From: a phage
Length of the DNA stretch: 27,839 nucleotides
Reading direction: 5' to 3' (one strand)
Assembly: GCA_023859445.1 (NCBI GenBank)
Contig: GCA_023859445.1_4337.1
Part shown: in pieces, positions 16,053 through 25,903 of the stretch
Layout of the letters: every line of letters starts with the position of its first letter
Position numbering within the stretch: position 1 is the stretch's first letter
Program-made: the position numbers and the translations under genes
The notes under the pieces: generated by a model
What the model was told of the DNA's origin: nothing
Database searches by the model: none
Seen by the model: only the letters and a program-made list of their open reading frames with translations

Positions 16053-16565
16053 ATGCCGCTAATCGTGGAAGATGGGTCGATAGTACCTGATGCCGACAGT
16101 TACGTTAGTCTGGCCGACGCCCGCGCGTTAGCGGCTAATTACGGTCTTGTGTTGCCGGCAGACGATACCGCCGCAGAGGTGGCCCTGCGCAACGGTGCTA
16201 CTTATGTTGGGCTTGCAGAACCTCAGATGTGCGGGCGTCGCGTATCCGCTGAACAGTCTCTGGCGTACCCACGTACAGGAACAACACTAAACGGCTTCAC
16301 CGTAGCGGATAATGTTATCCCGTCGCAGTTAATCCGGGCACAAGTAATCGCTGCGGTTACGTATGGTGCGGGTACTGATGTTCGGGCTAACTCAGATGGG
16401 CGTTCCGTGCAGACTGAGCGTGTTGAGGGTGCTGTGACAGTGACATACTTCAACAACGGCAACAGTGGCGCCACAACCGCTATTACCGCTGCGGACGACG
16501 CATTACGCCCGTTACTGTGTGGTGGTCTTAACAATGGCTTCTCATTTAACGTGTACCGGGGTTAA
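16053..16565 (+). CDS. Head completion / head-tail connector protein (putative), 170 aa
   Basis: ORF track; position in the connector block; no specific motif recognised. Confidence 0.45.
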   Translation: MPLIVEDGSIVPDADSYVSLADARALAANYGLVLPADDTAAEVALRNGATYVGLAEPQMCGRRVSAEQSLAYPRTGTTLNGFTVADNVIPSQLIRAQVIAAVTYGAGTDVRANSDGRSVQTERVEGAVTVTYFNNGNSGATTAITAADDALRPLLCGGLNNGFSFNVYRG

Positions 16566-16567
16566 AA

Positions 16568-17182
16568 ATGGCAAAGACCAAAACAGAGATGTTTGCCCTT
16601 ATCGGCGCTAACCTTCCCGATAACACCACCGGGCTTATCACACCCGAGAAGTTACGCGAAGTAATGACGCAGATGGCAGATTCGCCTATCTATGCCACTC
16701 CCGGGGTGAAAGAGGTTGAAGTTCTCCGTGCCGCGTCCACTGTAATACAAGCACCATCCGCAGTGAACACAGCATTGCAGTTAACTTTCGGTCCCGCGCA
16801 GGGTAGCGCATCTGACCCGGTAATGATTAATGCAGCGGGTCTGGTTACGTTCAACACTGCAGGCAACTACGCCGTTCGCATCAAGTTACAGGCGGGGCGC
16901 ACTGGAGCGAGCGGGACGTCCGTCCTGTTATCGCGCATTCTTCTTAACGGCGCACAGTACGGCTCGCCAGCAGCTACTAAACTGGTAAGTGCTGATACTA
17001 CAATCCCGATTGAATCTCGCGTCGTTATTAACACAACCGCAGGCCAGACGTTTGCCGTTCAGATTATGCGGGATAGTGCCGGGACCAACTTCGGCGGCGT
17101 ATATCCGCAAGTTGCTACCGTAACCGCATGGGGTACAGCACCATCCGCATTACTGGTTATTTCGAGACTGGAGGCCGCCTGA
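16568..17182 (+). CDS. Virion structural protein (putative), 204 aa
   Basis: ORF track; tightly packed after previous gene; function by position only. Confidence 0.45.
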   Translation: MAKTKTEMFALIGANLPDNTTGLITPEKLREVMTQMADSPIYATPGVKEVEVLRAASTVIQAPSAVNTALQLTFGPAQGSASDPVMINAAGLVTFNTAGNYAVRIKLQAGRTGASGTSVLLSRILLNGAQYGSPAATKLVSADTTIPIESRVVINTTAGQTFAVQIMRDSAGTNFGGVYPQVATVTAWGTAPSALLVISRLEAA

Positions 17183-17276
17183 TGAATAAGTTCACATGTG
17201 GTGTAGTTTTTGGTTTTCTTACCGCGGTAGTCTTGCACAGTTACGGTGTTCTTTTGACGCTGCAAGAGGTGCTAAA

Positions 17277-17636
17277 ATGAGCACCGCTTTCAGTAAACGT
17301 ATGCAAGGCGTCGGTACACGCCTGCTAACCAAATTCGGTAGCACGGTATCTCTGATTCGCGCTGGTTCAAAAGTATGGGATGAAGTTCTCGGTGAGTACG
17401 TCTGGTCTGCGGATGAAGTGATGCCGTTGAAGGCCGTTCCGGTTCCGGTAAACGCGGGACTGGTAAACGGTACGACGATTCAGGCTGGCGACATGATTGT
17501 TAAAGCCGATTACAGCGTCGTTCCGAAGATGGAAGACAAGGTGCAATTCGGCGGCGAGCAATGGTCCATCGTAGCTATTGAGAAGAAGATGGTTAACGAT
17601 GACGTCGTGGCGTACTTTATTCAGGTGAGAAAATGA
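17277..17636 (+). CDS. Head-tail joining protein (putative), 119 aa
   Basis: ATG 17277 with SD AAGAGGTG, in frame with track ORF 17196-17636 whose N-terminal extension looks spurious. Confidence 0.45.
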   Translation: MSTAFSKRMQGVGTRLLTKFGSTVSLIRAGSKVWDEVLGEYVWSADEVMPLKAVPVPVNAGLVNGTTIQAGDMIVKADYSVVPKMEDKVQFGGEQWSIVAIEKKMVNDDVVAYFIQVRK

Positions 17637-18028
17637 GTTTCGCGCTCGATGTCTCTAAGTTCGTGGAAAAGGCGAAGAAGAACCCTGAGAAGGTGATGCG
17701 TCAGGTGTCTATCAAGCTGTTTTCCGCTATTATAAAGGCGAGTCCGGTAGACACGGGCCGCTTTCGTATGAACTGGATGGCATCTGGCGGTACTCCTGCT
17801 TCCGGGATTACGGACGCTACGGATAAATCAGGAAACACAGCAACCGGAAACGCTACGAGTTTCGTGCTGAAAGCCGCTGACTGGCATGAGTTCACGCTGA
17901 CAAATAATCTGCCGTATGCGCAACGGCTGGAGTATGGTTGGTCGCAACAGGCGCCAGCCGGGGTTGTCAGGACTAATGTGTCTCGCTTCCAGCAACTCAT
18001 TAACGAAGAAGCCAACAAGGTGAAATGA
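17633..18028 (+). CDS. HK97 gp10-like neck / tail-completion protein (131 aa)
   Basis: ORF track; motif PVDTGRFRMNW resembles the conserved DTG...W signature of the HK97 gp10 family (from memory). Confidence 0.55.
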   Translation: MSFALDVSKFVEKAKKNPEKVMRQVSIKLFSAIIKASPVDTGRFRMNWMASGGTPASGITDATDKSGNTATGNATSFVLKAADWHEFTLTNNLPYAQRLEYGWSQQAPAGVVRTNVSRFQQLINEEANKVK

Positions 18029-18441
18029 TGGGCTACTTTGAGGACTTAACAAAAGCGTTCGATGTTCCGCTGGTAGCCTTCGGAACCGCCAACGGCATCA
18101 AGGTCGCGCTTGAAAACATCGACGCGCCGACGTCAACCGATACGCCATATCTGGCAAGTTACATGTTACTGGCGGATACCGAGCAAGCAGATTTGTTCTT
18201 CACGGAACAACGCGCGGGTGTTTATCAGGTCGACATTAACTACGCATCGGTGAAAGGTAGCGCGCCAATCAATAAAATGGCAGACTTACTTAACACGGCA
18301 TTCAAAGCAGGTAAGTCATTTTCTCGTAACGACATCTGCGCCGAGGTTCAATCGGTTAGCCTGGGGCCGCTGATTGTAGAAAACGGATGGGCCAAACGAC
18401 CATTGTCAATTAACTTTATTGCATTCACCAAGAGGCTGTGA
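18025..18441 (+). CDS. Tail terminator / tail completion protein (putative), 138 aa
   Basis: ORF track; ATGA overlap; located immediately before the major tail gene. Confidence 0.4.
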   Translation: MMGYFEDLTKAFDVPLVAFGTANGIKVALENIDAPTSTDTPYLASYMLLADTEQADLFFTEQRAGVYQVDINYASVKGSAPINKMADLLNTAFKAGKSFSRNDICAEVQSVSLGPLIVENGWAKRPLSINFIAFTKRL

Positions 18442-18443
18442 AT

Positions 18444-19610
18444 ATGGCTACAACTCCTTTTAAGGGCGCGAATACTGCGCAATTCTATGTGGCAGAAACT
18501 ACCCCTGGCGTAACACCGACTAACCCGGTCTGGTCGCCATTGCGTAACACAGGTGGCGTTCCTGCCATTACCCGCGACACGCTGACCTCCAACGAACTGG
18601 ACGGCAGCCGTGAAACTACATCCATCCGCACCGGTAACAAACAGGTTAGCGGTGAATACGCGATCGAGCTTAGCTCGAAAAGCCAGGATGACTGGCTGGC
18701 TGGTGCTTTAGGCTCTACGTGGCAATCCGGTGTTTCCCTGTCCAGTCTGTCGATTACCGTCGCACCCGCGGGCAAGACGTTCACACGCGCTACCGGCAGT
18801 TTTATCACTGACGGAGTTGGGGTAGGCGACCTGATTGCATTTACCGATTTAACAGGCGATAACGCAAAACCATTTATTGTTACTGCAGTAACGGCTACGG
18901 TTGTTACCGGTGCGGGCATCCAACACACCCTGACCACCGAGACAAAAACTAGTAAGGCTAAAACCGGCGACACGCTGGAAACCGGTAACACGTGTAAGAC
19001 GTTCTCTATCCTTACCTGGTACAAAGGCCAGTGCGGCGGTACTGACGCGTACACGTTAACCAAAGGCGTGGAAGTTTCTGGTTTTACCATCGAACAGGCT
19101 GTTAACGCGATGGTAACTGGCAGCTTCCCATTCATCGGTCGCAGTCAGGAGATTCTCACTACGCCGCCGACCGGTTCCAACTTCTCATCTGTTACTTTTG
19201 GTGATGAGCCGTTCTCTTCGGTTGACGTTTCCGTGTTCGATGGCTCTACGCCGTTGCGTTGTGATAGCCTTACCATCACCAACGACAACAGCGCGTCCGC
19301 ACAGTTCGAACTCGGCAACACTAACGTAGCGTTTGTGGAGCGTAGCCGAGCAGCTAACACCTTCTCCATCTCCGGTAAGCTGTACGACATGGCGATGATT
19401 CAGAAGTTTATCAACGAGCAGCAGGTGGAGATTAACTCTATTCTGGCGGGGGTAAACGGGGCTATGTCTTTCAGTTTGAAACGTGCAGAACTTACGGCGG
19501 TTACACCTGAGATTGGAGGACCTGAGTCAATCACTCAGTCTATTGAAGGCCAGGCTACTGGCAACCAGTACCAGTCGTCTATTGTTATTCAGCGTATCAC
19601 ATACGCATAA
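18444..19610 (+). CDS. Major tail (tube) protein (putative), 389 aa
   Basis: ATG 18444 (SD AAGAGG 8 nt upstream) within track ORF 18438-19610; followed by strong terminator; by synteny. Confidence 0.55.
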   Translation: MATTPFKGANTAQFYVAETTPGVTPTNPVWSPLRNTGGVPAITRDTLTSNELDGSRETTSIRTGNKQVSGEYAIELSSKSQDDWLAGALGSTWQSGVSLSSLSITVAPAGKTFTRATGSFITDGVGVGDLIAFTDLTGDNAKPFIVTAVTATVVTGAGIQHTLTTETKTSKAKTGDTLETGNTCKTFSILTWYKGQCGGTDAYTLTKGVEVSGFTIEQAVNAMVTGSFPFIGRSQEILTTPPTGSNFSSVTFGDEPFSSVDVSVFDGSTPLRCDSLTITNDNSASAQFELGNTNVAFVERSRAANTFSISGKLYDMAMIQKFINEQQVEINSILAGVNGAMSFSLKRAELTAVTPEIGGPESITQSIEGQATGNQYQSSIVIQRITYA

Positions 19611-19614
19611 AACT

Positions 19615-19637
19615 AAGGCCCCGTTTGGGGCCTTTTT
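19615..19637. terminator. Bidirectional intrinsic terminator between convergent major tail gene and minus-strand operon
   Basis: Stem AAGGCCCC/GGGGCCTT, loop GTTT, flanked by AAAACT and TTTTT; stop of minus gene (19639) sits in the T-tract. Confidence 0.75.
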
Positions 19638-19638
19638 C

Positions 19639-20193
19639 TTACAAACCTAATCTTAAAGCAATGCCTATAGCGTTCGATTTAACGTAACCCGGTATGATGT
19701 AGGTGTCATAATCTTTTACACCATCAATATCGTACAGGTAACCGCGGCTGTCCCCTTCAAACGTATGGCCGTCTCTGTGCAAGCGGACGATTCTCACATC
19801 ATGCCACGCGGCAACGATAGGGGCTACTTCGCTGGCGAACCCGCCATCAGACACCACAAAAACTTCGTCGCCGTCGGGCAAGTTTCCGGCAAGATACTTA
19901 CCGAAATAATCATCACCGAATACCGGTTTAATGAATTGCTCGGAAATGGCAATCATGAACTGACGCCGAGACAACCCGTTAAGGAAACCCTCTGGCTTTT
20001 CTTTCCGCGCCCGGTCGTCGTAGCCGTCGAGAAACTCGCGGTAAGCATCCTGGCCTAACGCAGCCATAGCAATATTGAACATCGGATTCTTGAAACTGGC
20101 GACACCCTTCGCAAAGCCCATTTCTACCAGCGCCCTAGCAAGTGTGTCTTTCCCGCAGCCCGCAGGACCATTAAGAATAATTACCTTAGCCAT
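19639..20193 (-). CDS. P-loop nucleotide kinase (dNMP kinase-like; possibly polynucleotide 5'-kinase), 184 aa
   Basis: ORF track; N-terminal Walker A LNGPAGCGKDT, similar in pattern to phage dNMP kinase GKDT P-loops. Confidence 0.65.
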   Translation of the reverse strand: MAKVIILNGPAGCGKDTLARALVEMGFAKGVASFKNPMFNIAMAALGQDAYREFLDGYDDRARKEKPEGFLNGLSRRQFMIAISEQFIKPVFGDDYFGKYLAGNLPDGDEVFVVSDGGFASEVAPIVAAWHDVRIVRLHRDGHTFEGDSRGYLYDIDGVKDYDTYIIPGYVKSNAIGIALRLGL

Positions 20194-20678
20194 TATTTAT
20201 CACTCCCATGTGGTTTTAAGTGTGTAGAGTTCCCGTTACAGTCGTATTCAGTAACTGCGTGAGTGGTTATGCCGAGTTCGCGGAAATGCTTTATTACCGC
20301 TGGAGAGTCGTCGAATGCACACAAGATTCTCTCCGGCCCAATAGCACGCAACACCTCTTCTTTAATTACGATGTCTTTTCTGTTGTCGTGTTTGCTGCGC
20401 ATGATTAACTGATAAAATTCGACGCGGTGGCGCTGCAACCACATTCTGGTTTCTTTTTCCGCGTCATCACTACGGCCTGTTAAGATAATAACGGCATAGC
20501 GACGATTAAGGGCGTTACACAGTTCGATGTTATCTTTAATGGGTGCATCGTCTTTGCACGCCATGTTAAATGGTTTCCACGCCCAGGTTTCGCCGTAGTT
20601 ATCTTTCGGCAGCAGGTGTAAACGATGAGTACCATCTGCCAATGTCCCGTCTAAATCGAAAATCACAATATCTTTCAT
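20193..20678 (-). CDS. HAD-superfamily phosphatase (polynucleotide 3'-phosphatase / nucleotidase-like), 161 aa
   Basis: ORF track; HAD motif I FDLDGTL, motif II ILTGRS, C-terminal FDDS; pattern resembles the T4 Pnk phosphatase domain as recalled from memory. Confidence 0.65.
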   Translation of the reverse strand: MKDIVIFDLDGTLADGTHRLHLLPKDNYGETWAWKPFNMACKDDAPIKDNIELCNALNRRYAVIILTGRSDDAEKETRMWLQRHRVEFYQLIMRSKHDNRKDIVIKEEVLRAIGPERILCAFDDSPAVIKHFRELGITTHAVTEYDCNGNSTHLKPHGSDK

Positions 20679-21805
20679 CCAAGCATCTCCGGTGAAATAG
20701 TTAAACGTGCGACCTCGCCATATTCGGCGCTATAAGTAATTACGTTTGCACTGCGGCCCGACATCCACCCACCGCGGGAGGCATATGCATCTTTAGCCGC
20801 GAGAGTGCGGTGTTGCTCAACAATCATGTTACGGCTTTCTATAATCTTTTGGTGGTGCAGGTGACCCACGTGGGCGTAGCTGTAAACACTCTCGCCGAAC
20901 GCTTTGCGGAACTTGGCGATCATAACCGGTTCGATAGCGTCGAATCGTGCTTTATGCCCATGATGGAAGAACAGCGTCGTTTTGCCGTGTTGCACCATCT
21001 TGTAAACATCCGGCGACGTATCGACGAACACACGCGGCTCATTGTCGTACAGCGTACTAAACATCTCAGCTAACCAAATCATTCCGCTTTCGTCGTGGTT
21101 ACCTTGCACGATAAGCAAGCGAACATTTTTATGTTTAACGAGAGCCATATCAATGACACGGCGGACCATACGAATCATGTAGCGTACAAGTTTCTGATAG
21201 CGGGTGTCAGCGTCAAGAACATGACCACTGGCAGGTGTAACGGCGTCCAGACTATCGAAATGCGCAAGGTCGCCCAGCAGATTAATAACTCCTGTTCCGG
21301 CATCCGGTGCTTTCTGGAACGCTGCGTCGAACCAGCGGGAGAACAGGTCTTCCGCAATCTTCATGTCCCAGTCGTCGCCGCTCTCGTCAGCCCAGGCCAG
21401 CATACCGAGATGGAAATCAGACACAGTGTAAAGGTTGAGTAGCTTGTCGTCTCGTTTGGCGCGAACGGCTTTAACAGGTGCAACTGGTGTAATCTCCGAC
21501 TTCATGCCTTCGATTACGGCTTTCATCAATTCAACCTGACGTTCGGCATCGGTGTCGGTCTTAACCCATTGCAACTTGGTGTTGCCAAACTCATCCACCA
21601 GTGATGACGTTCCTTTAATCTTGTAGCCGTCCGGCACAAGGTGACTAACGTCGCGCCCGTGGCCTACGCCTTTCTTAGCCAGCTTCGCTTTACGGATACG
21701 GATAACGCGGTCAGAGATGCCGTATTTACGGGCGATGTCGATATTCTTCATACCGGCGTTCAATTCTTCCTGTAACTGTTCGTCGGTTATTTTCTTCCTG
21801 GCCAT
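20675..21805 (-). CDS. Calcineurin-like metallophosphoesterase with N-terminal HTH-like domain (376 aa)
   Basis: ORF track; phosphoesterase motifs D-x-H (SDFHLG), GD..D (GDLAHFD), GNHDE, HHGH, GHLHH; N-terminal segment NIDIARKYGISDRVIRIRKAKL looks helix-turn-helix. Confidence 0.7.
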   Translation of the reverse strand: MARKKITDEQLQEELNAGMKNIDIARKYGISDRVIRIRKAKLAKKGVGHGRDVSHLVPDGYKIKGTSSLVDEFGNTKLQWVKTDTDAERQVELMKAVIEGMKSEITPVAPVKAVRAKRDDKLLNLYTVSDFHLGMLAWADESGDDWDMKIAEDLFSRWFDAAFQKAPDAGTGVINLLGDLAHFDSLDAVTPASGHVLDADTRYQKLVRYMIRMVRRVIDMALVKHKNVRLLIVQGNHDESGMIWLAEMFSTLYDNEPRVFVDTSPDVYKMVQHGKTTLFFHHGHKARFDAIEPVMIAKFRKAFGESVYSYAHVGHLHHQKIIESRNMIVEQHRTLAAKDAYASRGGWMSGRSANVITYSAEYGEVARLTISPEMLG

Positions 21806-21849
21806 GCTTATTCCTCGTGTTTAGGATTTGTCTTATTTAACTACAATAG

Positions 21850-22176
21850 CTATTTACTTTCCACTCCCGCCGCCCAAGCTAGAGAGACGATTTGTAAGCG
21901 AGTAGCCACCAATGCGCTGCTGTAGCCTGGTGATTTCATGTCCACAGAACTCATGACAAGGCCTGTTACAAGGTCGAAGCTAACCCCTGCTGCTCCTGCT
22001 GAATACGCGGCCTCACATTCTTTAATAACCGCATTTTTAAACATTTTTTGCGCGGCTACAGGGGCGCTTTCTATTAAACCCGCAGTTATTAATGGGGTTT
22101 CAGAATAAATCTGCTCACAAGTGGAACCTACCGCAGTAAAAGATATGAAACCTAAAGCTAAGATTAATGTACGCAT
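21850..22176 (-). CDS. Small secreted/periplasmic protein with N-terminal signal peptide (108 aa)
   Basis: ORF track; MRTLILALGFISFTAVGSTCEQ looks like a cleavable signal peptide (no canonical lipobox); SD AAGGAA; first gene after conserved promoter copy 4. Confidence 0.5.
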   Translation of the reverse strand: MRTLILALGFISFTAVGSTCEQIYSETPLITAGLIESAPVAAQKMFKNAVIKECEAAYSAGAAGVSFDLVTGLVMSSVDMKSPGYSSALVATRLQIVSLAWAAGVESK

Positions 22177-22217
22177 TTGTTAATTCCTTATTTGAGATAA
22201 CATTGTTGGTGTAAGTG

Positions 22218-22247
22218 AATAGTACCCTATTATATTTGGGTGCGCAA
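22218..22247 (-). promoter_or_regulatory. Conserved phage promoter, copy 4 (TTGCGC-N17-TACTAT, minus strand)
   Basis: -35 complement of 22242-22247, -10 complement of 22219-22224, palindrome AATAGTACCCTATT 22218-22231; drives the minus-strand accessory operon. Confidence 0.5.
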
Positions 22248-22355
22248 GTAGTGTGTTAGAATAATTTTGCACCTAGTGTCGCGCACGAAAAGCGGATGGT
22301 TACCGCCTGGTGCATTTAAGCCAAACCAACAACCTCTTAACCAAAGGATTAAAGA

Positions 22356-22772
22356 ATGAAACTGTCAGACTTCTACTTTGCGTCCAAACACGCAGCAGGA
22401 ACCAAGATGCCGATTCTGTTGCCAGACGGCAGCGATTCCGGCGAATGGCTACAGGTCATGGGGCCAGATTGCGACGACTCCATCGCAGCTGCTAAAGACT
22501 TCATCTCTGCTTATCGCGACATCCTGGACAACCTGAAGCCGCTTGACGCTGAGTGCCGCGAGAAAGGCGACTGGGCTAGATATAACACTGAGTTGAACAG
22601 TGAACTGGCGAAGCTGAATGATGCGCTTGCCGCCGTTGTAGTGATAGGCTGGTCCTTCGACGAGAAGTTCACTAAGAAGGCGCTTGTTAAACTACTCAAG
22701 GAATACAAAGGCTTAGGTGGTGCAGTGGCCCAGCATCACGCAGAGAGCCGCAAAGCGCTGTCGGTAAAGTAG
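22356..22772 (+). CDS. Tail assembly chaperone (putative), 138 aa
   Basis: ORF track; SD AAAGGA; acidic protein immediately upstream of tape measure region; by synteny. Confidence 0.5.
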   Translation: MKLSDFYFASKHAAGTKMPILLPDGSDSGEWLQVMGPDCDDSIAAAKDFISAYRDILDNLKPLDAECREKGDWARYNTELNSELAKLNDALAAVVVIGWSFDEKFTKKALVKLLKEYKGLGGAVAQHHAESRKALSVK

Positions 22773-22804
22773 AGGCGCTCTACGAATATGCGCGGTATCG
22801 CTGG

Positions 22805-23122
22805 GTGATACGTCAGAAGCGCCGGGAGTTCGACTCCATCGCGGACGGTCACAAAGCGGCTCTGACGGCGATGGGATTACCAGTCCCGCCAGAGCCGGAA
22901 GAAGACCCTCCAGAATGCCCGGCTGATATGATGCGAATCATGGACAAATACTACGCATTGAAGTTTGTAAGTCGCAATAACGTACTAATACCGAGGGAGA
23001 TGCTTCAATACCATCACCTGACAGCATATGCTGAACTACACAAGCAACCGTTCACGCTATTGGAGGTGGATTTAATCATGGGCCTTGACGCATTGTTCGA
23101 AGGCCGTAACGAGGATGAATAG
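22805..23122 (+). CDS. Second tail-chaperone-region ORF in the -1 frame (105 aa; independent gene or frameshift extension)
   Basis: ORF track (GTG start, weak SD); its frame is open from 22691 and overlaps the end of the upstream gene by about 80 nt; ends 2 nt before the tape measure start. Confidence 0.4.
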   Translation: MIRQKRREFDSIADGHKAALTAMGLPVPPEPEEDPPECPADMMRIMDKYYALKFVSRNNVLIPREMLQYHHLTAYAELHKQPFTLLEVDLIMGLDALFEGRNEDE

Positions 23123-23123
23123 A

Positions 23124-25121
23124 ATGGCAGATACCGCAAGTTTAATCGTAAAGGTACAGGCTACCGGGGCAGAGCAGGCCGCCAAGCAGCTTGATAGCCT
23201 GAGCAGTTCCGCGGGTAAGGCGGATACCAGTACCAAGAAGATGACTGACACCACATCGGCAGCGGCACCGAAGATGAACGCGCTCAAAGCGTCCATCGGC
23301 AACGCTGGATATCAGGTACAGGACTTCATCGTACAGATTCAGGGCGGGCAATCGGCCCTCACCGCGTTCACCCAGCAGGGTAGCCAGTTAGTATCAGCGT
23401 TTAACCCGATTGCAGGTACTGTGTTGACGCTGGCTACGGTTATCGGCGGCGCGCTATACGCTTCGATGTCCGACGCGAAGGACACCGCAAAGGAACTGGA
23501 AGACGCGACCAAGTTCCTCGATGATGCACTGAACGAAGCAACGCCGGGCGTGTATGAAATGAACGACGCACTGGAGAAGCTCGACGCTATCGGTGCTACC
23601 ACGGCGGAGAAGATGGCATTTCTCAACAAGGCACTGGAAGCTACTGCCGTGCAAGCCAACGCTACCGCTGACAAGATTGTAGAAGCAATCGACAAGGTGA
23701 CTAAGGCGCAGTCCATCTTCCAGAAGCTTACGACCAACCTTGCCGCGTCGCAGATAGCGCAGGGCGGTAATGCTGCTGGGGCGGTGGCGTTCCAGTACGA
23801 AGCAGCAGCAGAGGCCGCTGGACTTACCGCAAAAGAGATGCGTAGTATTGAGGTCGCACAGAAAGCTATCGCCGCTGGAGTTCCGGGCGCTCGTGAAGGA
23901 CTGATTGCGTACCTCGACGGCATCAAAGCTAAGACGCCGGAAGCGCAAATCGAGCTTAACAAGCTGCGTAATGAACTGAACTACCTAGGCGTAGAGGAGA
24001 AGACACGCGCCGCTGAACGTAAGGGCGTAGAACAGGCTGAGAAGACATACGAGAAGGACAAAGCGGACCGGGCGCAGAAGGAAATCGACCGCCAGAATCG
24101 AATCAGTGCTGCCGCCGTGAAACGTGCGTCCGCGCAGGCACGAGCAGAGGCTAAAGCGCAGGAGAGCGCACAGAAAGCCGCTGACCAGTTCATCGCGCAA
24201 CTCGATACCAACACAGGTACCGAGTTAGACAAAATCGATGCTAAAGAGAAGCAGAAGCTAGCTAAGTTGCAGGAATACCATGACAAGCAACTGGTAAGCG
24301 ACGCTGAGTATGAGCAGTCGAAAAGCGACATCATGGCCGAGTTTCAGGCACAGCGGGACGCCCTCTACAACAACGCCGATGTGTATTTACAGAAGTTACA
24401 AGCGCTTGGCGGCACTGAGTACGAGGAAATCCAACGGCAGAATGACGCCAAACTCAAGCAACTGGATGACTTCCTGAAACAGAAGCTGATTAGCGAAGAA
24501 CAGTACGCCAACGCAGTTACCGCGCTGAATGAGCAAAGCAACATTGCGCAGGCTAACGCTACAGCCAACGCGTTCGGAAGCATGGCTGCCGATGCTAAAT
24601 CCGCATTGGGTGAAACGTCCGCCGCGTATAAAGCGTTCGCAATCACCCAGGCGACCATCGCCACCTACACCGCAGCTATAGAGGCGTACAAGTCCACGGC
24701 AGCTATCCCGATTGTTGGCCCGGCGCTAGCCCCGGTTGCCGCCGGTCTGGCAGTTGCCGCAGGTGTGGCTAACATCGCCAAGATTAGCGGTGCGCGTGAG
24801 CAGGGCGGGCAGATGAACGCAGGCGGTAGCTATCTTGTCGGGGAACGTGGTCCAGAGATTATTAAGATGGGTGGTGCCGGTCGTGCAAGTAATGCAAGCC
24901 AGACGCGGGCTGAGCTGTCAGGCAGTGGTAACAGCGGCCCGGCTAACATCAGCATCATTAACAACACTAGTGCACAAATCGGCAACGTATCTACTGAACA
25001 GGATGATGAAGGGCGTCTGCGCATCATTATCTCTGAGCAGGTGGCTTCTGAGCTAATGAACAGCAACAGTCGGATTAGCAAGGCCCGCAAGTCTACGCGA
25101 AATGCACCCGGCTTTAAGTGA
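23124..25121 (+). CDS. Tape measure protein (666 aa)
   Basis: ATG 23124 (SD GAGG 9 nt upstream) within track ORF 23085-25121; long Ala/Gln/Lys-rich helical protein with hydrophobic Gly/Ala-rich segment near the C-terminus. Confidence 0.8.
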   Translation: MADTASLIVKVQATGAEQAAKQLDSLSSSAGKADTSTKKMTDTTSAAAPKMNALKASIGNAGYQVQDFIVQIQGGQSALTAFTQQGSQLVSAFNPIAGTVLTLATVIGGALYASMSDAKDTAKELEDATKFLDDALNEATPGVYEMNDALEKLDAIGATTAEKMAFLNKALEATAVQANATADKIVEAIDKVTKAQSIFQKLTTNLAASQIAQGGNAAGAVAFQYEAAAEAAGLTAKEMRSIEVAQKAIAAGVPGAREGLIAYLDGIKAKTPEAQIELNKLRNELNYLGVEEKTRAAERKGVEQAEKTYEKDKADRAQKEIDRQNRISAAAVKRASAQARAEAKAQESAQKAADQFIAQLDTNTGTELDKIDAKEKQKLAKLQEYHDKQLVSDAEYEQSKSDIMAEFQAQRDALYNNADVYLQKLQALGGTEYEEIQRQNDAKLKQLDDFLKQKLISEEQYANAVTALNEQSNIAQANATANAFGSMAADAKSALGETSAAYKAFAITQATIATYTAAIEAYKSTAAIPIVGPALAPVAAGLAVAAGVANIAKISGAREQGGQMNAGGSYLVGERGPEIIKMGGAGRASNASQTRAELSGSGNSGPANISIINNTSAQIGNVSTEQDDEGRLRIIISEQVASELMNSNSRISKARKSTRNAPGFK

Positions 25122-25129
25122 CAACAGAA

Positions 25130-25151
25130 AGGCCCTCAGGGCCTTTATTTT
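25130..25151. terminator. Bidirectional intrinsic terminator after tape measure gene
   Basis: Stem AGGCCC/GGGCCT, short loop, then TTATTTT; stop of the minus-strand gene (25145) lies within it. Confidence 0.7.
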
Positions 25152-25903
25152 CTCCAGCCTCTGGGTTTATGCCCCTCGTTACACAATTTGGTAAACTCCG
25201 CGATGATTGCGGTATCGGCTACCATCCACTCACTTGCTCCGTCAAAGTTGCTTAGCTCCGCTGATACGTGTGCGCGGTGGAAATATCGCTCCAACATACG
25301 GCAACGAGCACCATTAGCGTCTTGGTATACGCTAAGCACATGGAACTCGAATGGGGTGGCACGCTCTAGCTGGGCAAGGCGTTGCTTTAACTTGTTAGTG
25401 ATACCTATTTTGAGATATTTACCACATGCGGAAAGAAGCCCGTAAATATATCCCGGTTTGTTAGAATTGTAGCCGTGCTTGGCACATGAGGGGCATCCAT
25501 GCCCATGCACTAAAATGTTATTAACTCCCGTGACAAACACCCCGTGGTCCTTACAGACCCGTATCGCTTTTGAATTTTTGTTAAGGTACGCCCCGCCCTC
25601 AAAACCCACGAACGTATATCGAACATCCGCTGATTTTATTTGCTCAATAACCGCATTTGTATTCTTGCGGTACGCAACAGACGCGGCCTCCCTGCTGCAT
25701 TTCATGCACCCGTGACCTCCGGCGATGCTACGGGCTATAGCCGCAAATTCGCCGTGTTCTGGGCAAGTAATTCTAATCTTACTGGTCGAGTTGATATACT
25801 CGCTACCATCATAACTTGGGGATATTGTGTACTTCCCGCCGTGTTTCTTTAAATCTAACTCGACCATTTTCTTCCGTTCTTCCCAACCAATTTTAGCGCT
25901 CAT
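25145..25903 (-). CDS. Homing-endonuclease-like protein (GIY-YIG / T5orf172-MUG113-like C-terminal domain with two N-terminal Cys/His zinc-ribbon repeats), 252 aa
   Basis: ORF track; repeats CPEHGEF...GHGCMKC and CKDHGVF...GHGCPSC; C-terminal GYIYGLL...KIGIT...R pattern resembles GIY-YIG-type domains (from memory); opposite strand inside the tail module. Confidence 0.55.
   Translation of the reverse strand: MSAKIGWEERKKMVELDLKKHGGKYTISPSYDGSEYINSTSKIRITCPEHGEFAAIARSIAGGHGCMKCSREAASVAYRKNTNAVIEQIKSADVRYTFVGFEGGAYLNKNSKAIRVCKDHGVFVTGVNNILVHGHGCPSCAKHGYNSNKPGYIYGLLSACGKYLKIGITNKLKQRLAQLERATPFEFHVLSVYQDANGARCRMLERYFHRAHVSAELSNFDGASEWMVADTAIIAEFTKLCNEGHKPRGWRK

What the first reader, a model, noticed from the sequence alone, without database searches (positions are those of the whole stretch)
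21850..22176. Small signal-peptide protein as first gene of the accessory operon: candidate superinfection-exclusion or envelope-targeting factor
This 108-aa protein has an N-terminal signal peptide, sits in the tail/receptor-binding region and is transcribed opposite to the tail genes from an early-looking promoter. That arrangement is reminiscent of phage receptor-blocking or exclusion proteins (such as T5 Llp or Cor-type factors). The sequence lacks a canonical lipobox, so it is more likely periplasmic than lipid-anchored.
Basis: inference. Interest (0 to 1): 0.5.

Follow-up and report, generated by a model that had tools for sequence, protein, structure and literature searches.

The report
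Secreted phage protein, likely superinfection blocker
This small exported protein of an E. coli Kagunavirus belongs to an uncharacterised phage family that sits in the same genome slot, beside the tape-measure genes, where most relatives carry a T4 Imm-type superinfection-immunity gene, so it is probably a new kind of periplasmic blocker of secondary infection, though nobody has tested this.

Summary
The ORF at 21850-22176 (minus strand, 108 aa) is a real gene. It has a Shine-Dalgarno site, matches phrog_14165 at E=2e-24, has full-length homologues in about 100 Guernseyvirinae genomes, and shows dN/dS of 0.04-0.26.

All members have a signal peptide with a charged start, a hydrophobic core and a small-residue cleavage motif. 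That motif lies 1-7 residues before an invariant cysteine. A second cysteine is also invariant, and the main family has no lipobox. The AlphaFold model (pLDDT 78.6) is a small helical bundle. It resembles nothing in PDB, Pfam, NCBIfam or PADLOC, and it does not resemble T4 Spackle.

The strongest clue is position. In every context examined the gene lies between the tail-tube gene and the tail-assembly-chaperone/tape-measure genes, reading away from the chaperone. In some relatives it is the only gene there.

In about 78% of Guernseyvirinae the same slot holds a T4 Imm homologue. The two gene types together account for nearly all genomes. T4 Imm was recently reported to bind the tape-measure protein.

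The gene is inherited with the chaperone/tape-measure module, with one known recombinant (SETP3). Its protein sequence changes 6-15 times faster than theirs.

Best reading: a periplasmic factor that blocks genome entry after adsorption. This is an inference, not a demonstration. The Llp/Cor receptor-blocking analogy and the "early promoter" are not supported.

The parts
21850..22176 (-). CDS of the 108-aa secreted protein (phrog_14165 family), stop codon included
   Evidence: ORF list and sequence. phrog_14165 E=2e-24 over the full length. 99 phage records with full-length homologues. dN/dS 0.04-0.26.
22123..22176 (-). Codons 1-18, the predicted Sec signal peptide MRTLILALGFISFTAVGS. Candidate signal peptidase I sites are AVG|S and VGS|T, just before invariant Cys20.
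   Evidence: Hydropathy and -3/-1 rule. The same architecture appears in 14 of 14 members, with small-residue sites 1-7 aa before the Cys. There is no lipobox at that Cys. SignalP was not run.
21853..22122 (-). Mature domain of about 90 aa. It is predicted as a helical bundle (helices at residues 19-31, 40-62, 67-77, 87-106) with invariant Cys20 and Cys54 and a conserved C-terminal helix, ATRLQ.V...W..G.ESK.
   Evidence: AlphaFold2 model with pLDDT 78.6 and pTM 0.71. Invariant columns in alignments A2 and A4.
22185..22189 (-). Shine-Dalgarno AAGGA, 8 nt upstream of the ATG
   Evidence: Read from the sequence.
22177..22355 (.). Divergent intergenic control region between the slot gene and the chaperone gene. 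It holds a conserved TATAAT (22234-22229, minus strand), an alternative TTGCGC-17 nt-TACTAT (22247-22219, minus strand), and a small hairpin followed by a T run (about 22304-22284, minus strand).
   Evidence: About 81-88% nucleotide identity across Kagunaviruses, although both flanking genes are only 45-57% identical in protein. The consensus scan did not call a promoter here. The SETP3 record annotates a BPROM promoter upstream of its slot gene.
20675..21805 (-). Second gene of the leftward cassette: helix-turn-helix plus metallophosphoesterase ('DNA repair exonuclease', phrog_704)
   Evidence: It is 99% identical to K1H and K1G although the slot gene is only 45% identical.
20193..20678 (-). 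Third cassette gene: HAD-type polynucleotide kinase/phosphatase domain protein (PF25109)
19639..20193 (-). Fourth cassette gene: P-loop dNMP-kinase-like protein (phrog_139)
19615..19634 (.). GC-rich hairpin that reads as a terminator on both strands. It ends the leftward cassette and the rightward tail-tube transcript.
22356..23122 (+). Tail assembly chaperone genes (G at 22356-22772; second-frame ORF at 22805-23122, which relatives annotate as a joined product). They are transcribed divergently from the slot gene.
   Evidence: PF08748 match. Annotation of K1G and K1H.
23124..25121 (+). Tape measure protein (about 665 aa, the short type), the proposed target module. It is co-inherited with the slot gene.
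   Evidence: Annotation of the near-identical Esher4 genome. Identity table. Linkage searches. Saturated dS shared by slot, chaperone and tape-measure genes.

Best explanation
The gene encodes a pre-protein exported through Sec and cut by signal peptidase I. This releases a soluble helical protein of about 90 aa into the periplasm of the infected cell, probably held by a Cys20-Cys54 disulfide.

There it acts as a superinfection-exclusion factor working after adsorption. It stops later-arriving phages of the same group from delivering their DNA. The most likely route is binding the ejected tape-measure/tail-tip assembly, or whatever that assembly needs, before a channel forms in the inner membrane.

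It would be a non-homologous functional replacement for the Imm-type membrane protein that most Guernseyvirinae carry at the same position.

Shown here: the gene is real, the export signal is conserved, the slot alternates with Imm, and the gene is linked to the chaperone/tape-measure module. Inferred: periplasmic location, the disulfide, exclusion activity and the target.
For: 1. Export signal.
- All 14 members checked have the charged-start, hydrophobic-core, cleavage-motif layout, with small-residue sites 1-7 aa before an invariant Cys.
- Two Cys are invariant across 15 sequences, down to the most divergent member (14% by the alignment tool's count).

2. Same slot as Imm.
- K1G and SETP3 carry a 59-63-aa protein at the identical position. 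The K1G protein matches PF14373 at E=7.5e-13 and T4 Imm at E=2e-10.
- By my count of that alignment, the K1G protein keeps the residues equivalent to T4 Imm R33 and W50. Mutating those residues weakens exclusion in T4 (bioRxiv 10.64898/2026.03.06.709160).

3. The two gene types divide the genomes between them.
- 99 records have the family and 352 have Imm.
- These roughly sum to all records that share the slot's intergenic region: 124 in Kagunavirus and 328 in Jerseyvirus.
- The complete genome of the closest relative has the family gene and no Imm.

4. Position is the invariant feature.
- In ten contexts spanning 100% to about 14% identity, the gene always lies beside and divergent from the chaperone gene.
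- In L019 and L021 it is the only gene between the tube and chaperone genes.
- The rest of the cassette varies or is absent.

5. Linkage to the tape-measure module.
- The window's metallophosphoesterase, phosphatase, kinase and tube proteins are 96-100% identical to K1H and K1G.
- The slot protein (45% to K1H; K1G has Imm), the chaperones (52-57% and 41-43%) and the tape measure (42-44%) are all divergent.
- All 33 Kagunavirus records that match most of the K1H query carry slot, chaperone and tape-measure N-terminus together. The other records listed match only the intergenic island, with one record cut by its genome end.
- 63 Jerseyvirus records show the same pattern.
- dS is saturated for slot, chaperone and tape-measure genes, but only 0.3-0.5 for the tube and kinase genes in the L017 comparison.

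6. Precedent.
- T4 Imm binds the tape measure directly.
- HK97 gp15, an exclusion gene, lies between the chaperone and tape-measure genes, and its specificity maps to the tail (PMC3594210).

7. Fast evolution. dN is 0.37-0.40, against 0.03-0.06 for the adjacent chaperone and tape-measure genes in the same genome pairs. This fits an interface under conflict.

8. Base composition. GC in windows over the gene is 0.41-0.45, against roughly 0.48-0.58 in flanking genes, as expected for an added accessory gene.
Against: - There is no functional data for any family member. No homology or fold match exists to any characterised exclusion protein.
- Sharing a slot with Imm shows interchangeability, not identity of function. 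Variable slots in phage genomes can hold unrelated cargo.
- Linkage to the chaperone/tape-measure module could simply reflect adjacency. SETP3 combines the Jersey-type module with Imm, so pairing is not obligatory.
- The part of the tape measure that differs between types is mainly the N-terminal two-thirds. The window's hydrophobic segment region is the best-conserved part between types, which weakens any argument from type-specific co-variation.
- Expression timing is unknown. In one relative the gene in this slot was classed as late.
- The Cys-Cys distance in the model could not be inspected.
Confidence: 0.45

Rival explanations
1. Receptor masking in the manner of T5 Llp or Cor. The exported protein binds an outer-membrane receptor or component and prevents adsorption or triggering of incoming phages.
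For: - The protein is exported to the envelope.
- Two distant members (P0031 and the Hafnia TS33 homologue) have an L/I-G-C lipobox-like motif earlier in the signal peptide, with Ser at +2. They could therefore be outer-membrane lipoproteins.
- Virulent phages such as T5 do use this strategy (PMC9586334, listed).
Against: - The window protein and the main family have no lipobox.
- The gene is never next to a receptor-binding protein or tailspike gene. It is always next to the chaperone/tape-measure genes.
- Kagunavirus and Jerseyvirus phages depend on O-antigen or capsule glycans through tailspikes. No protein receptor is described for them in the paper read (PMC11990801).
- There are no sequence or fold hits to any solved structure.
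Confidence: 0.1
2. A periplasmic lysis-timing regulator or superinfection sensor, like the T4 RI antiholin. It would be a small helical periplasmic protein that binds the holin's periplasmic part, or senses material ejected by superinfecting phages, and delays lysis.
For: - Its size, helical content and hydrophobic N-terminus resemble T4 RI (from my own knowledge of RI, not tested here).
- The glycine-, serine- and threonine-rich second half of the hydrophobic core could in principle act as a releasable signal anchor.
- The gene in this slot in a relative was classed as late.
Against: - The gene is not near the holin, endolysin or spanin genes, which lie elsewhere in the genome.
- Conserved small-residue cleavage motifs favour a cleaved signal.
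- No RI-like hit appears in the PDB fold or sequence searches.
- The protein that alternates with it in the slot is Imm, not a lysis protein.
Confidence: 0.07
3. Some other periplasmic accessory function unrelated to exclusion of related phages. Examples are inhibition of a host periplasmic enzyme or envelope stress pathway, protection against colicins or unrelated phages, or modification of the envelope to aid progeny release.
For: - Only export and accessory status are actually shown.
- The family has no recognisable domain.
- Fast protein evolution fits any host-interaction interface.
Against: This does not explain why the gene is invariably glued to the chaperone/tape-measure junction across very divergent phages. 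It also does not explain why it alternates with an Imm homologue.
Confidence: 0.25
4. Not exported. The hydrophobic N-terminus is an uncleaved membrane anchor or a buried helix, and the protein acts in the cytoplasm or inner membrane. One possibility is a role as a tail-assembly accessory working with the neighbouring chaperone.
For: - SignalP was not run.
- The AlphaFold model leaves residues 1-18 unstructured with low confidence.
- The gene is adjacent to and co-inherited with the chaperone/tape-measure module.
Against: - The signal peptide layout is conserved while its sequence drifts. The invariant Cys pair suits an oxidising compartment.
- The gene is replaced by Imm in most relatives that assemble the same kind of tail, so it cannot be essential for assembly.
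Confidence: 0.08

Closest known systems
T4 Imm / Pfam PF14373 Imm_superinfect (including the 59-63-aa proteins of K1G, SETP3 and about 350 other Guernseyvirinae)
   Same: It occupies exactly the same slot: first gene of the leftward cassette, divergent from the chaperone gene, behind the same conserved intergenic region. It alternates with the family. It is a small envelope-located accessory protein of virulent phages.
   Different: There is no sequence relationship and no PF14373 hit. Imm is an integral membrane protein of about 60-83 aa. This protein has a cleavable signal peptide and a soluble helical domain of about 90 aa with two conserved Cys. Its function has not been demonstrated.
T4 Spackle (Sp), a periplasmic superinfection-exclusion protein (PDB 6X6O, 6XC0, 7CN6)
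   Same: Both are about 100 aa, carry a signal peptide, are small helical periplasmic proteins of virulent coliphages, and have an Imm-type counterpart (T4 carries both; here the two alternate).
HK97 gp15 (YebO-like exclusion gene added to the tail operon)
   Same: It is an exclusion gene embedded in the tail operon right at the chaperone/tape-measure junction. It blocks DNA entry without touching the receptor, and its specificity depends on the incoming tail (PMC3594210).
   Different: gp15 is an inner-membrane protein expressed from a prophage. This protein is secreted, belongs to virulent phages, is unrelated in sequence and is transcribed divergently.
T5 Llp and Cor (phi80/N15/T1) receptor-blocking lipoproteins
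   Same: They are small, signal-peptide-bearing envelope proteins of phages that prevent reinfection.
   Different: Those are lipoproteins with a lipobox Cys, are encoded beside the receptor-binding protein gene, and act on FhuA. Here there is no lipobox, the gene is not adjacent to a receptor-binding gene, and the phage group depends on glycan receptors.
Ltp of Streptococcus phage TP-J34
   Same: It is an extracytoplasmic helical exclusion protein. Its target is reported to be the tape measure (PMC3952083, listed, plus my own knowledge).
   Different: Ltp is a lipoprotein of a Gram-positive temperate phage. It has tandem helix-turn-helix-like repeats and is not among the fold-search hits.
PHROG phrog_14165 (function unknown)
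   Same: The protein is a member: full-length match at E=2e-24, and the K1H homologue matches at 1.1e-55.
   Different: The window allele is an outlier. It is 45-47% identical to the common K1H type and 58% to its nearest relatives, P0021 and P0022.

Membership tests
phrog_14165 (uncharacterised Guernseyvirinae protein family) | Full-length match to the family HMM | tested here: met
   E=2e-24, residues 1-108 against profile positions 1-109 of 109.
phrog_14165 (uncharacterised Guernseyvirinae protein family) | Conserved position beside and divergent from the tail assembly chaperone gene | tested here: met
   Window and ten related contexts.
Sec / signal peptidase I secretory proteins | Positive start, hydrophobic core of 10-20 residues, small residues at -3/-1, no Pro at +1 | tested here: met
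   R2; core TLILALGFISFTAV; sites AVG|S and VGS|T. The same layout is found in 14 of 14 members. This is rule-based only, since SignalP was not available.
Bacterial lipoproteins (signal peptidase II substrates; includes Llp, Cor, Ltp) | Lipobox [LVI][ASTVI][GAS]-C at the end of the signal peptide | tested here: not met
   The sequence before Cys20 is G-S-T. Across the main family the -1 residue is T, P or V. Only P0031 and the Hafnia TS33 homologue have an extra L/I-G-C motif.
T5 Llp / Cor receptor-blocking proteins | Gene adjacent to the receptor-binding protein gene | tested here: not met
   The gene lies between the tube and chaperone genes. The tailspike and J-like genes lie elsewhere in the closest complete genome.
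T5 Llp / Cor receptor-blocking proteins | Binds and inactivates an outer-membrane protein receptor (FhuA) | not testable with these tools
   Needs binding and adsorption assays. In the paper read, the phage group is glycan-dependent and no protein receptor is described.
Imm_superinfect (PF14373, T4 Imm) | Match to PF14373 and a membrane-embedded helical core | tested here: not met
   No Pfam hit at E<=1. The mature part has no segment of transmembrane-level hydropathy. The K1G protein in the same slot does match (E=7.5e-13).
T4 Spackle | Sequence or profile similarity to Spackle | tested here: not met
   hhalign probability 2.7%, with only the signal peptides aligned. No PDB sequence hit with the single sequence or the family profile.
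T4 Spackle | Fold similarity to PDB 6X6O / 7CN6 | tested here: not met
T4 Spackle | Inhibits a tail-associated lysozyme of the incoming phage | not tested
   No lysozyme domain in the tail genes was looked for. This needs biochemistry.
DUF3718 (annotation given to the S4lw homologue) | Match to the Pfam model | tested here: not met
   No such hit for the S4lw, Jersey, SGPC or Bas76 homologues at E<=10, nor for the 15 members of A4 at E<=1.
Superinfection-exclusion proteins (functional class) | Expression reduces infection by the same or related phages after or at adsorption | not testable with these tools
   Support is indirect only: the slot alternates with Imm and the gene is linked to the tape-measure module.
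Known anti-phage defence proteins (PADLOC) and NCBIfam families | HMM match | tested here: not met
   No hits at E<=1 for the window protein, P0002, P0018 or P0031.

The most novel reading that the evidence does not exclude
phrog_14165 would be a new family of soluble, disulfide-bonded periplasmic exclusion proteins. They would intercept the ejected tape-measure/tail-tip complex of siphoviruses before it reaches the inner membrane. With the Imm-type membrane proteins they would form two interchangeable, non-homologous answers to the same problem, swapped at one locus that travels with the tape-measure gene. To my knowledge no soluble periplasmic tape-measure-directed blocker has been described for phages of Gram-negative bacteria.
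Probability: 0.28. Interest if true: 0.65.

Novelty: new variant of a known kind. Interest (0 to 1): 0.45.

Why it matters
If the protein is an exclusion factor, Guernseyvirinae offer a natural experiment. About 450 sequenced virulent phages carry either an Imm homologue or this unrelated secreted protein at one locus next to the tape-measure gene.

Comparing the two could show how genome entry by siphoviruses can be blocked from the periplasm as opposed to from the membrane. It could also show which part of the tape-measure/tail-tip complex is exposed there.

There is a practical side. Kagunavirus and Jerseyvirus phages are widely proposed for therapy and biocontrol cocktails. Cross-exclusion between cocktail members would depend on which allele each one carries. 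The phenotype is cheap to test with BASEL phages Bas70-76, which include both alleles.

Tried and rejected
- **Family and structure searches, all empty.**
  - Pfam found nothing.
  - NCBIfam found nothing.
  - PADLOC found nothing.
  - PDB sequence searches with the single sequence and the family profile found nothing.
- **Fold searches gave nothing convincing.**
  - Foldseek-PDB: best E 1.8.
  - BFVD: only the K1H homologue was convincing. Three proteins of about 105-110 aa (A0A0K2FIX5, Serratia Tsm2, Salmonella SE1Kor) at 23-24% identity and TM 0.57-0.63 were not followed up.
  - The afdb50 library was unavailable.
- **DUF3718.** The label in the S4lw record could not be reproduced. No paper mentions DUF3718.
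- **Word-indexed protein search.** With the single protein it found only the identical sequence. The alignment search and the exhaustive search were needed.
- **P0029.** This 1128-aa repetitive, Cys-rich protein (sequence) is judged a spurious hit.
- **Distant members in the phage collection.**
  - tblastn with P0030 found nothing.
  - The Serratia Smarc2 match (E=0.5) lies in a different context and was dismissed.
- **Other phage groups.** I checked whether the slot follows the metallophosphoesterase gene in Dhillonvirus, Drexlerviridae and an Acinetobacter phage. It does not, so the association is with the chaperone junction.
- **Promoter.** The consensus scan gave no call in the intergenic region.
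- **Spackle.** Homology is rejected.
- **Not attempted.** The Cys20-Cys54 distance in the model could not be read.
Full report
**Source of the window.** The window comes from an E. coli siphovirus of the Kagunavirus type (subfamily Guernseyvirinae). The region 21400-22800 is 99.6% identical to Escherichia phage MirsaeidiM_Esher4. It matches 116 other, mostly Kagunavirus, records over only about half its length. The window is a mosaic relative to Esher4: 98% identical over 16110-25126 and 83-97% elsewhere.

**The observation**
- An ATG ORF of 108 codons lies at 21850-22176 on the minus strand. An AAGGA Shine-Dalgarno sits 8 nt upstream.
- It is the first gene of a leftward cassette set inside the rightward tail operon. 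The order is:
  - tail-tube gene (18438-19610, plus strand)
  - hairpin terminator (19615-19634)
  - P-loop kinase-like gene, HAD phosphatase gene and helix-turn-helix/metallophosphoesterase gene (19639-21805, minus strand)
  - the target gene
  - a 179-bp intergenic region
  - tail assembly chaperone genes (22356-23122, plus strand)
  - tape-measure gene (to 25121)
It is not in the receptor-binding region. In the closest complete genome the J-like tail protein and the tailspike are encoded far away.

**Is it a gene?** Yes.
- It matches PHROG phrog_14165 (function unknown) over its full length at E=2e-24.
- tblastn finds full-length homologues in 99 phage records: 64 Salmonella Jerseyvirus-type and about 35 E. 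coli or Shigella Kagunavirus-type. Apart from Esher4 they are 38-47% identical.
- The 5.8-billion-protein collection adds variants at 58% identity (P0021, P0022).
- An exhaustive HMMER scan of 1.84 billion cluster representatives found eight hits at E<=0.001. One (P0029) is judged spurious. Five are more distant relatives of 111-121 aa.
- dN/dS between alleles is 0.04-0.26.
- The family is therefore narrow. Every genomic context I could examine is a Guernseyvirinae-like phage contig.

**Signal peptide and lipobox**
- The N-terminus MRTLILALGFISFTAVGS has one positive charge, a hydrophobic core (mean hydropathy about 2.3 over 14 residues) and small residues at -3/-1 (AVG|S, VGS|T). Cys20 follows directly.
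- The same layout holds in all 14 members tested, although the sequence drifts.
- Small-residue cleavage motifs always lie 1-7 residues before the invariant Cys. Examples are SFA|T, SFA|H, ALA|S, AKA|T, AIA|G, ASA|M and AGA|S.
- The residue just before that Cys is T, P or V, so the Cys is not a lipobox Cys.
- Two distant members (P0031, Hafnia TS33) have an additional L/I-G-C motif earlier and may be lipoproteins.
- The mature part never reaches transmembrane-level hydropathy (maximum 1.41 over 19 residues).
- Cys20 and Cys54 are invariant in 15 sequences, down to the most divergent member. This suits a disulfide formed in the periplasm.
- SignalP and LipoP were not available, and I could not read the Cys-Cys distance from the model.

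**Structure and homology**
- AlphaFold2 with a 23-sequence alignment gives pLDDT 78.6 and pTM 0.71. The model has helices at residues 19-31, 40-62, 67-77 and 87-106.
- None of the searches gave a meaningful match:
  - Foldseek-PDB: best E 1.8.
  - BFVD: only the K1H homologue.
  - Pfam, NCBIfam, PADLOC and PDB sequence searches: no hit.
- A 'DUF3718' label on one homologue in GenBank could not be reproduced.
- I tested T4 Spackle directly, since it is the obvious periplasmic analogue. The hhalign probability is 2.7%, with only the signal peptides aligned. Spackle structures are in the PDB copy but are absent from the listed fold hits.

**The slot: the decisive evidence**
- In K1G, SETP3 and many others the same position holds a 59-63-aa membrane protein. 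The K1G protein matches Pfam Imm_superinfect at E=7.5e-13 and aligns to T4 Imm at E=2e-10.
- By my count of that alignment, it keeps the residues equivalent to T4 Imm R33 and W50.
- A five-way DNA alignment shows what is swapped. The upstream control region and the ribosome-binding site and start of the next gene are conserved. Exactly one ORF between them is exchanged.
- Counts in the phage collection:
  - The family is in 99 records and Imm in 352.
  - The conserved intergenic island is found in 124 Kagunavirus-type and 328 Jerseyvirus-type records.
  - The two gene types therefore account for essentially all genomes: about 22% family and 78% Imm.
- The complete Esher4 genome has the family gene and no Imm.

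**Position is more conserved than cargo**
- The family gene always sits directly beside and divergent from the chaperone gene. This holds in the following contexts:

| Context |
|---|
| K1H, Bas76, Jersey, S4lw and SGPC |
| P0021 and P0022 contigs |
| P0026, P0027, P0028, P0030 and P0031 contigs |
| Hafnia TS33 |

- What follows the gene varies:
  - The three enzyme genes in the window and in K1H.
  - The metallophosphoesterase gene plus other ORFs (an HNH gene in S4lw and L016) in other relatives.
  - Small ORFs only in Hafnia TS33 and L020.
  - Nothing at all in L019 and L021, where the family gene is the only gene between the tube and chaperone genes.
- In other phage groups the metallophosphoesterase gene sits in unrelated contexts.
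- The gene is thus a self-contained unit attached to the chaperone/tape-measure junction. HK97 gp15, the first described gene of this added-on kind and an exclusion protein, lies at that same junction (PMC3594210).

**Linkage with the tape-measure module**
- Protein identities of the window against K1H and K1G:

| Protein | Identity to K1H / K1G |
|---|---|
| Tube, kinase, phosphatase, metallophosphoesterase | 96-100% |
| Slot protein | 45% to K1H (K1G has Imm instead) |
| Chaperones | 52-57% and 41-43% |
| Tape measure | 42-44% |

- The P0021 and P0022 contigs share the window's short tape measure (667 aa, 90% identical) and chaperones (90-97%). They carry the nearest slot alleles, at 58%.
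- A query spanning the K1H slot, chaperone and tape-measure N-terminus covers 100% in 32 Kagunavirus records and 91% in one more that is cut by its genome end. In every other record listed it covers only the roughly 230-bp intergenic island.
- The Jersey equivalent covers at least 80% in 63 records. The one recombinant seen is SETP3, which has a Jersey-type module with Imm.
- Against the P0021 and P0022 contigs, synonymous divergence is saturated for the slot, chaperone and tape-measure genes. It is 0.30 and 0.47 for the tube and kinase genes against L017, and 0.65 for tube against L016.
- The slot gene therefore belongs to the old, separately inherited chaperone/tape-measure module. Within that module its protein changes much faster: dN is 0.37-0.40 against 0.03-0.06.

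**Mechanistic reading**
- A 2026 preprint reports that T4 Imm binds the tape measure's helical-bundle domain and so blocks formation of the DNA conduit. Imm mutants R33A and W50A are weakened. The authors draw the parallel to HK97 gp15 (10.64898/2026.03.06.709160).
- The slot here is next to the tape-measure gene. It usually carries an Imm homologue that keeps those residues, and it travels with the tape-measure module.
- The simplest reading is that phrog_14165 is a non-homologous alternative that blocks entry of related phages after adsorption, acting from the periplasm rather than from within the membrane.
- Its conserved N-terminal segment (PCEQ.FSE..L.TSG) and C-terminal helix (ATRLQMV..GWA.GAESK) are candidates for binding a conserved partner. 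The variable middle (residues about 36-45 and 58-86) may set specificity.
- This is inference. I put about 0.45 on exclusion in general and about 0.28 on a tape-measure or tail-tip target.

**Caveats**
- Sharing a slot is not proof of shared function.
- Adjacency alone could explain the linkage, and SETP3 shows the pairing can be broken.
- The tape-measure regions that differ most between types are N-terminal. The window's hydrophobic segment region is the best conserved between types.
- Timing is unknown. No consensus promoter is called, although a conserved TATAAT is present. A transcriptome of phage K1B4 classed the Imm gene in this slot as late.

- Export, the absence of a lipobox and 'candidate exclusion factor' hold up.
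- The Llp/Cor receptor-blocking analogy does not. There is no lipobox and no receptor-binding gene nearby. The group uses glycan receptors through tailspikes (PMC11990801).

**Verdict.** This is a real, exported, fast-evolving accessory protein of an uncharacterised family. It is most likely a new, non-homologous kind of superinfection-exclusion protein that alternates with Imm. Interest is moderate: the hypothesis is testable with phages already in hand, but nothing about function is yet demonstrated.

Noticed in passing
window 25145-25903 (minus strand): A 252-aa ORF directly after the tape-measure gene, on the opposite strand, matches endonuclease families (phrog_681 E=6e-51; HNH phrog_559 E=2e-16). 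It looks like a homing-endonuclease insert in the tail operon. Esher4 annotates only a 381-nt ORF at the equivalent place, and the P0021 contig has a different 216-aa gene there.
   Followed up: partly
window 22177-22355: The intergenic region is an island of 81-88% nucleotide identity across Kagunaviruses, yet both flanking genes are only 45-57% identical in protein. It contains a conserved TATAAT (22234-22229, minus strand), what I read by eye as a TGnTAGAAT-like extended -10 on the plus strand near 22254-22262 (not checked with a tool), and a small hairpin followed by a T run (about 22304-22284, minus strand). Its regulatory logic and its possible role as a recombination joint are unexplained.
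   Followed up: partly
window 19615-19634: A perfect 8-bp GC-rich hairpin reads as an intrinsic terminator on both strands. It lies between the convergent tail-tube gene and the last gene of the leftward cassette.
   Followed up: no
window 19639-21805 (minus strand): The cassette cargo is a helix-turn-helix/metallophosphoesterase protein (phrog_704), a PNKP-type HAD phosphatase (PF25109) and a P-loop dNMP-kinase-like protein (phrog_139). It resembles a split polynucleotide kinase-phosphatase repair set, and no ligase gene lies within the cassette. The cargo differs or is absent in relatives (Hafnia TS33, L019, L021, S4lw).
   Followed up: partly
window 22356-25121 compared with K1H, K1G, L016 and L017: At least three deeply diverged chaperone/tape-measure types circulate among otherwise 96-99% identical Kagunavirus backbones: the window's short 665-667-aa type and the K1H and K1G types (757-770 aa as annotated). 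Synonymous sites are saturated while dN is only 0.03-0.06 within the window's type.
   Followed up: partly
P0031 (L020:2617-2982) and Hafnia phage TS33 (L014:3501-3857): Two distant family members carry an L/I-G-C lipobox-like motif inside the signal peptide, with Ser at +2. Part of the family may therefore be lipid-anchored, while the main family appears soluble.
   Followed up: no
L009:4876-5073 and L008:5760-5957: In two distant relatives a 65-aa ORF lies between the chaperone gene and the family gene. The one in L009 looks like a small protein with two transmembrane helices, possibly a second envelope factor. The one in L008 looks soluble.
   Followed up: no
window as a whole compared with PQ579973 (L010): The window is 98% identical to Esher4 only over 16110-25126, and 83-97% elsewhere with gaps. 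It therefore represents a different mosaic relative, not the same phage.
   Followed up: no
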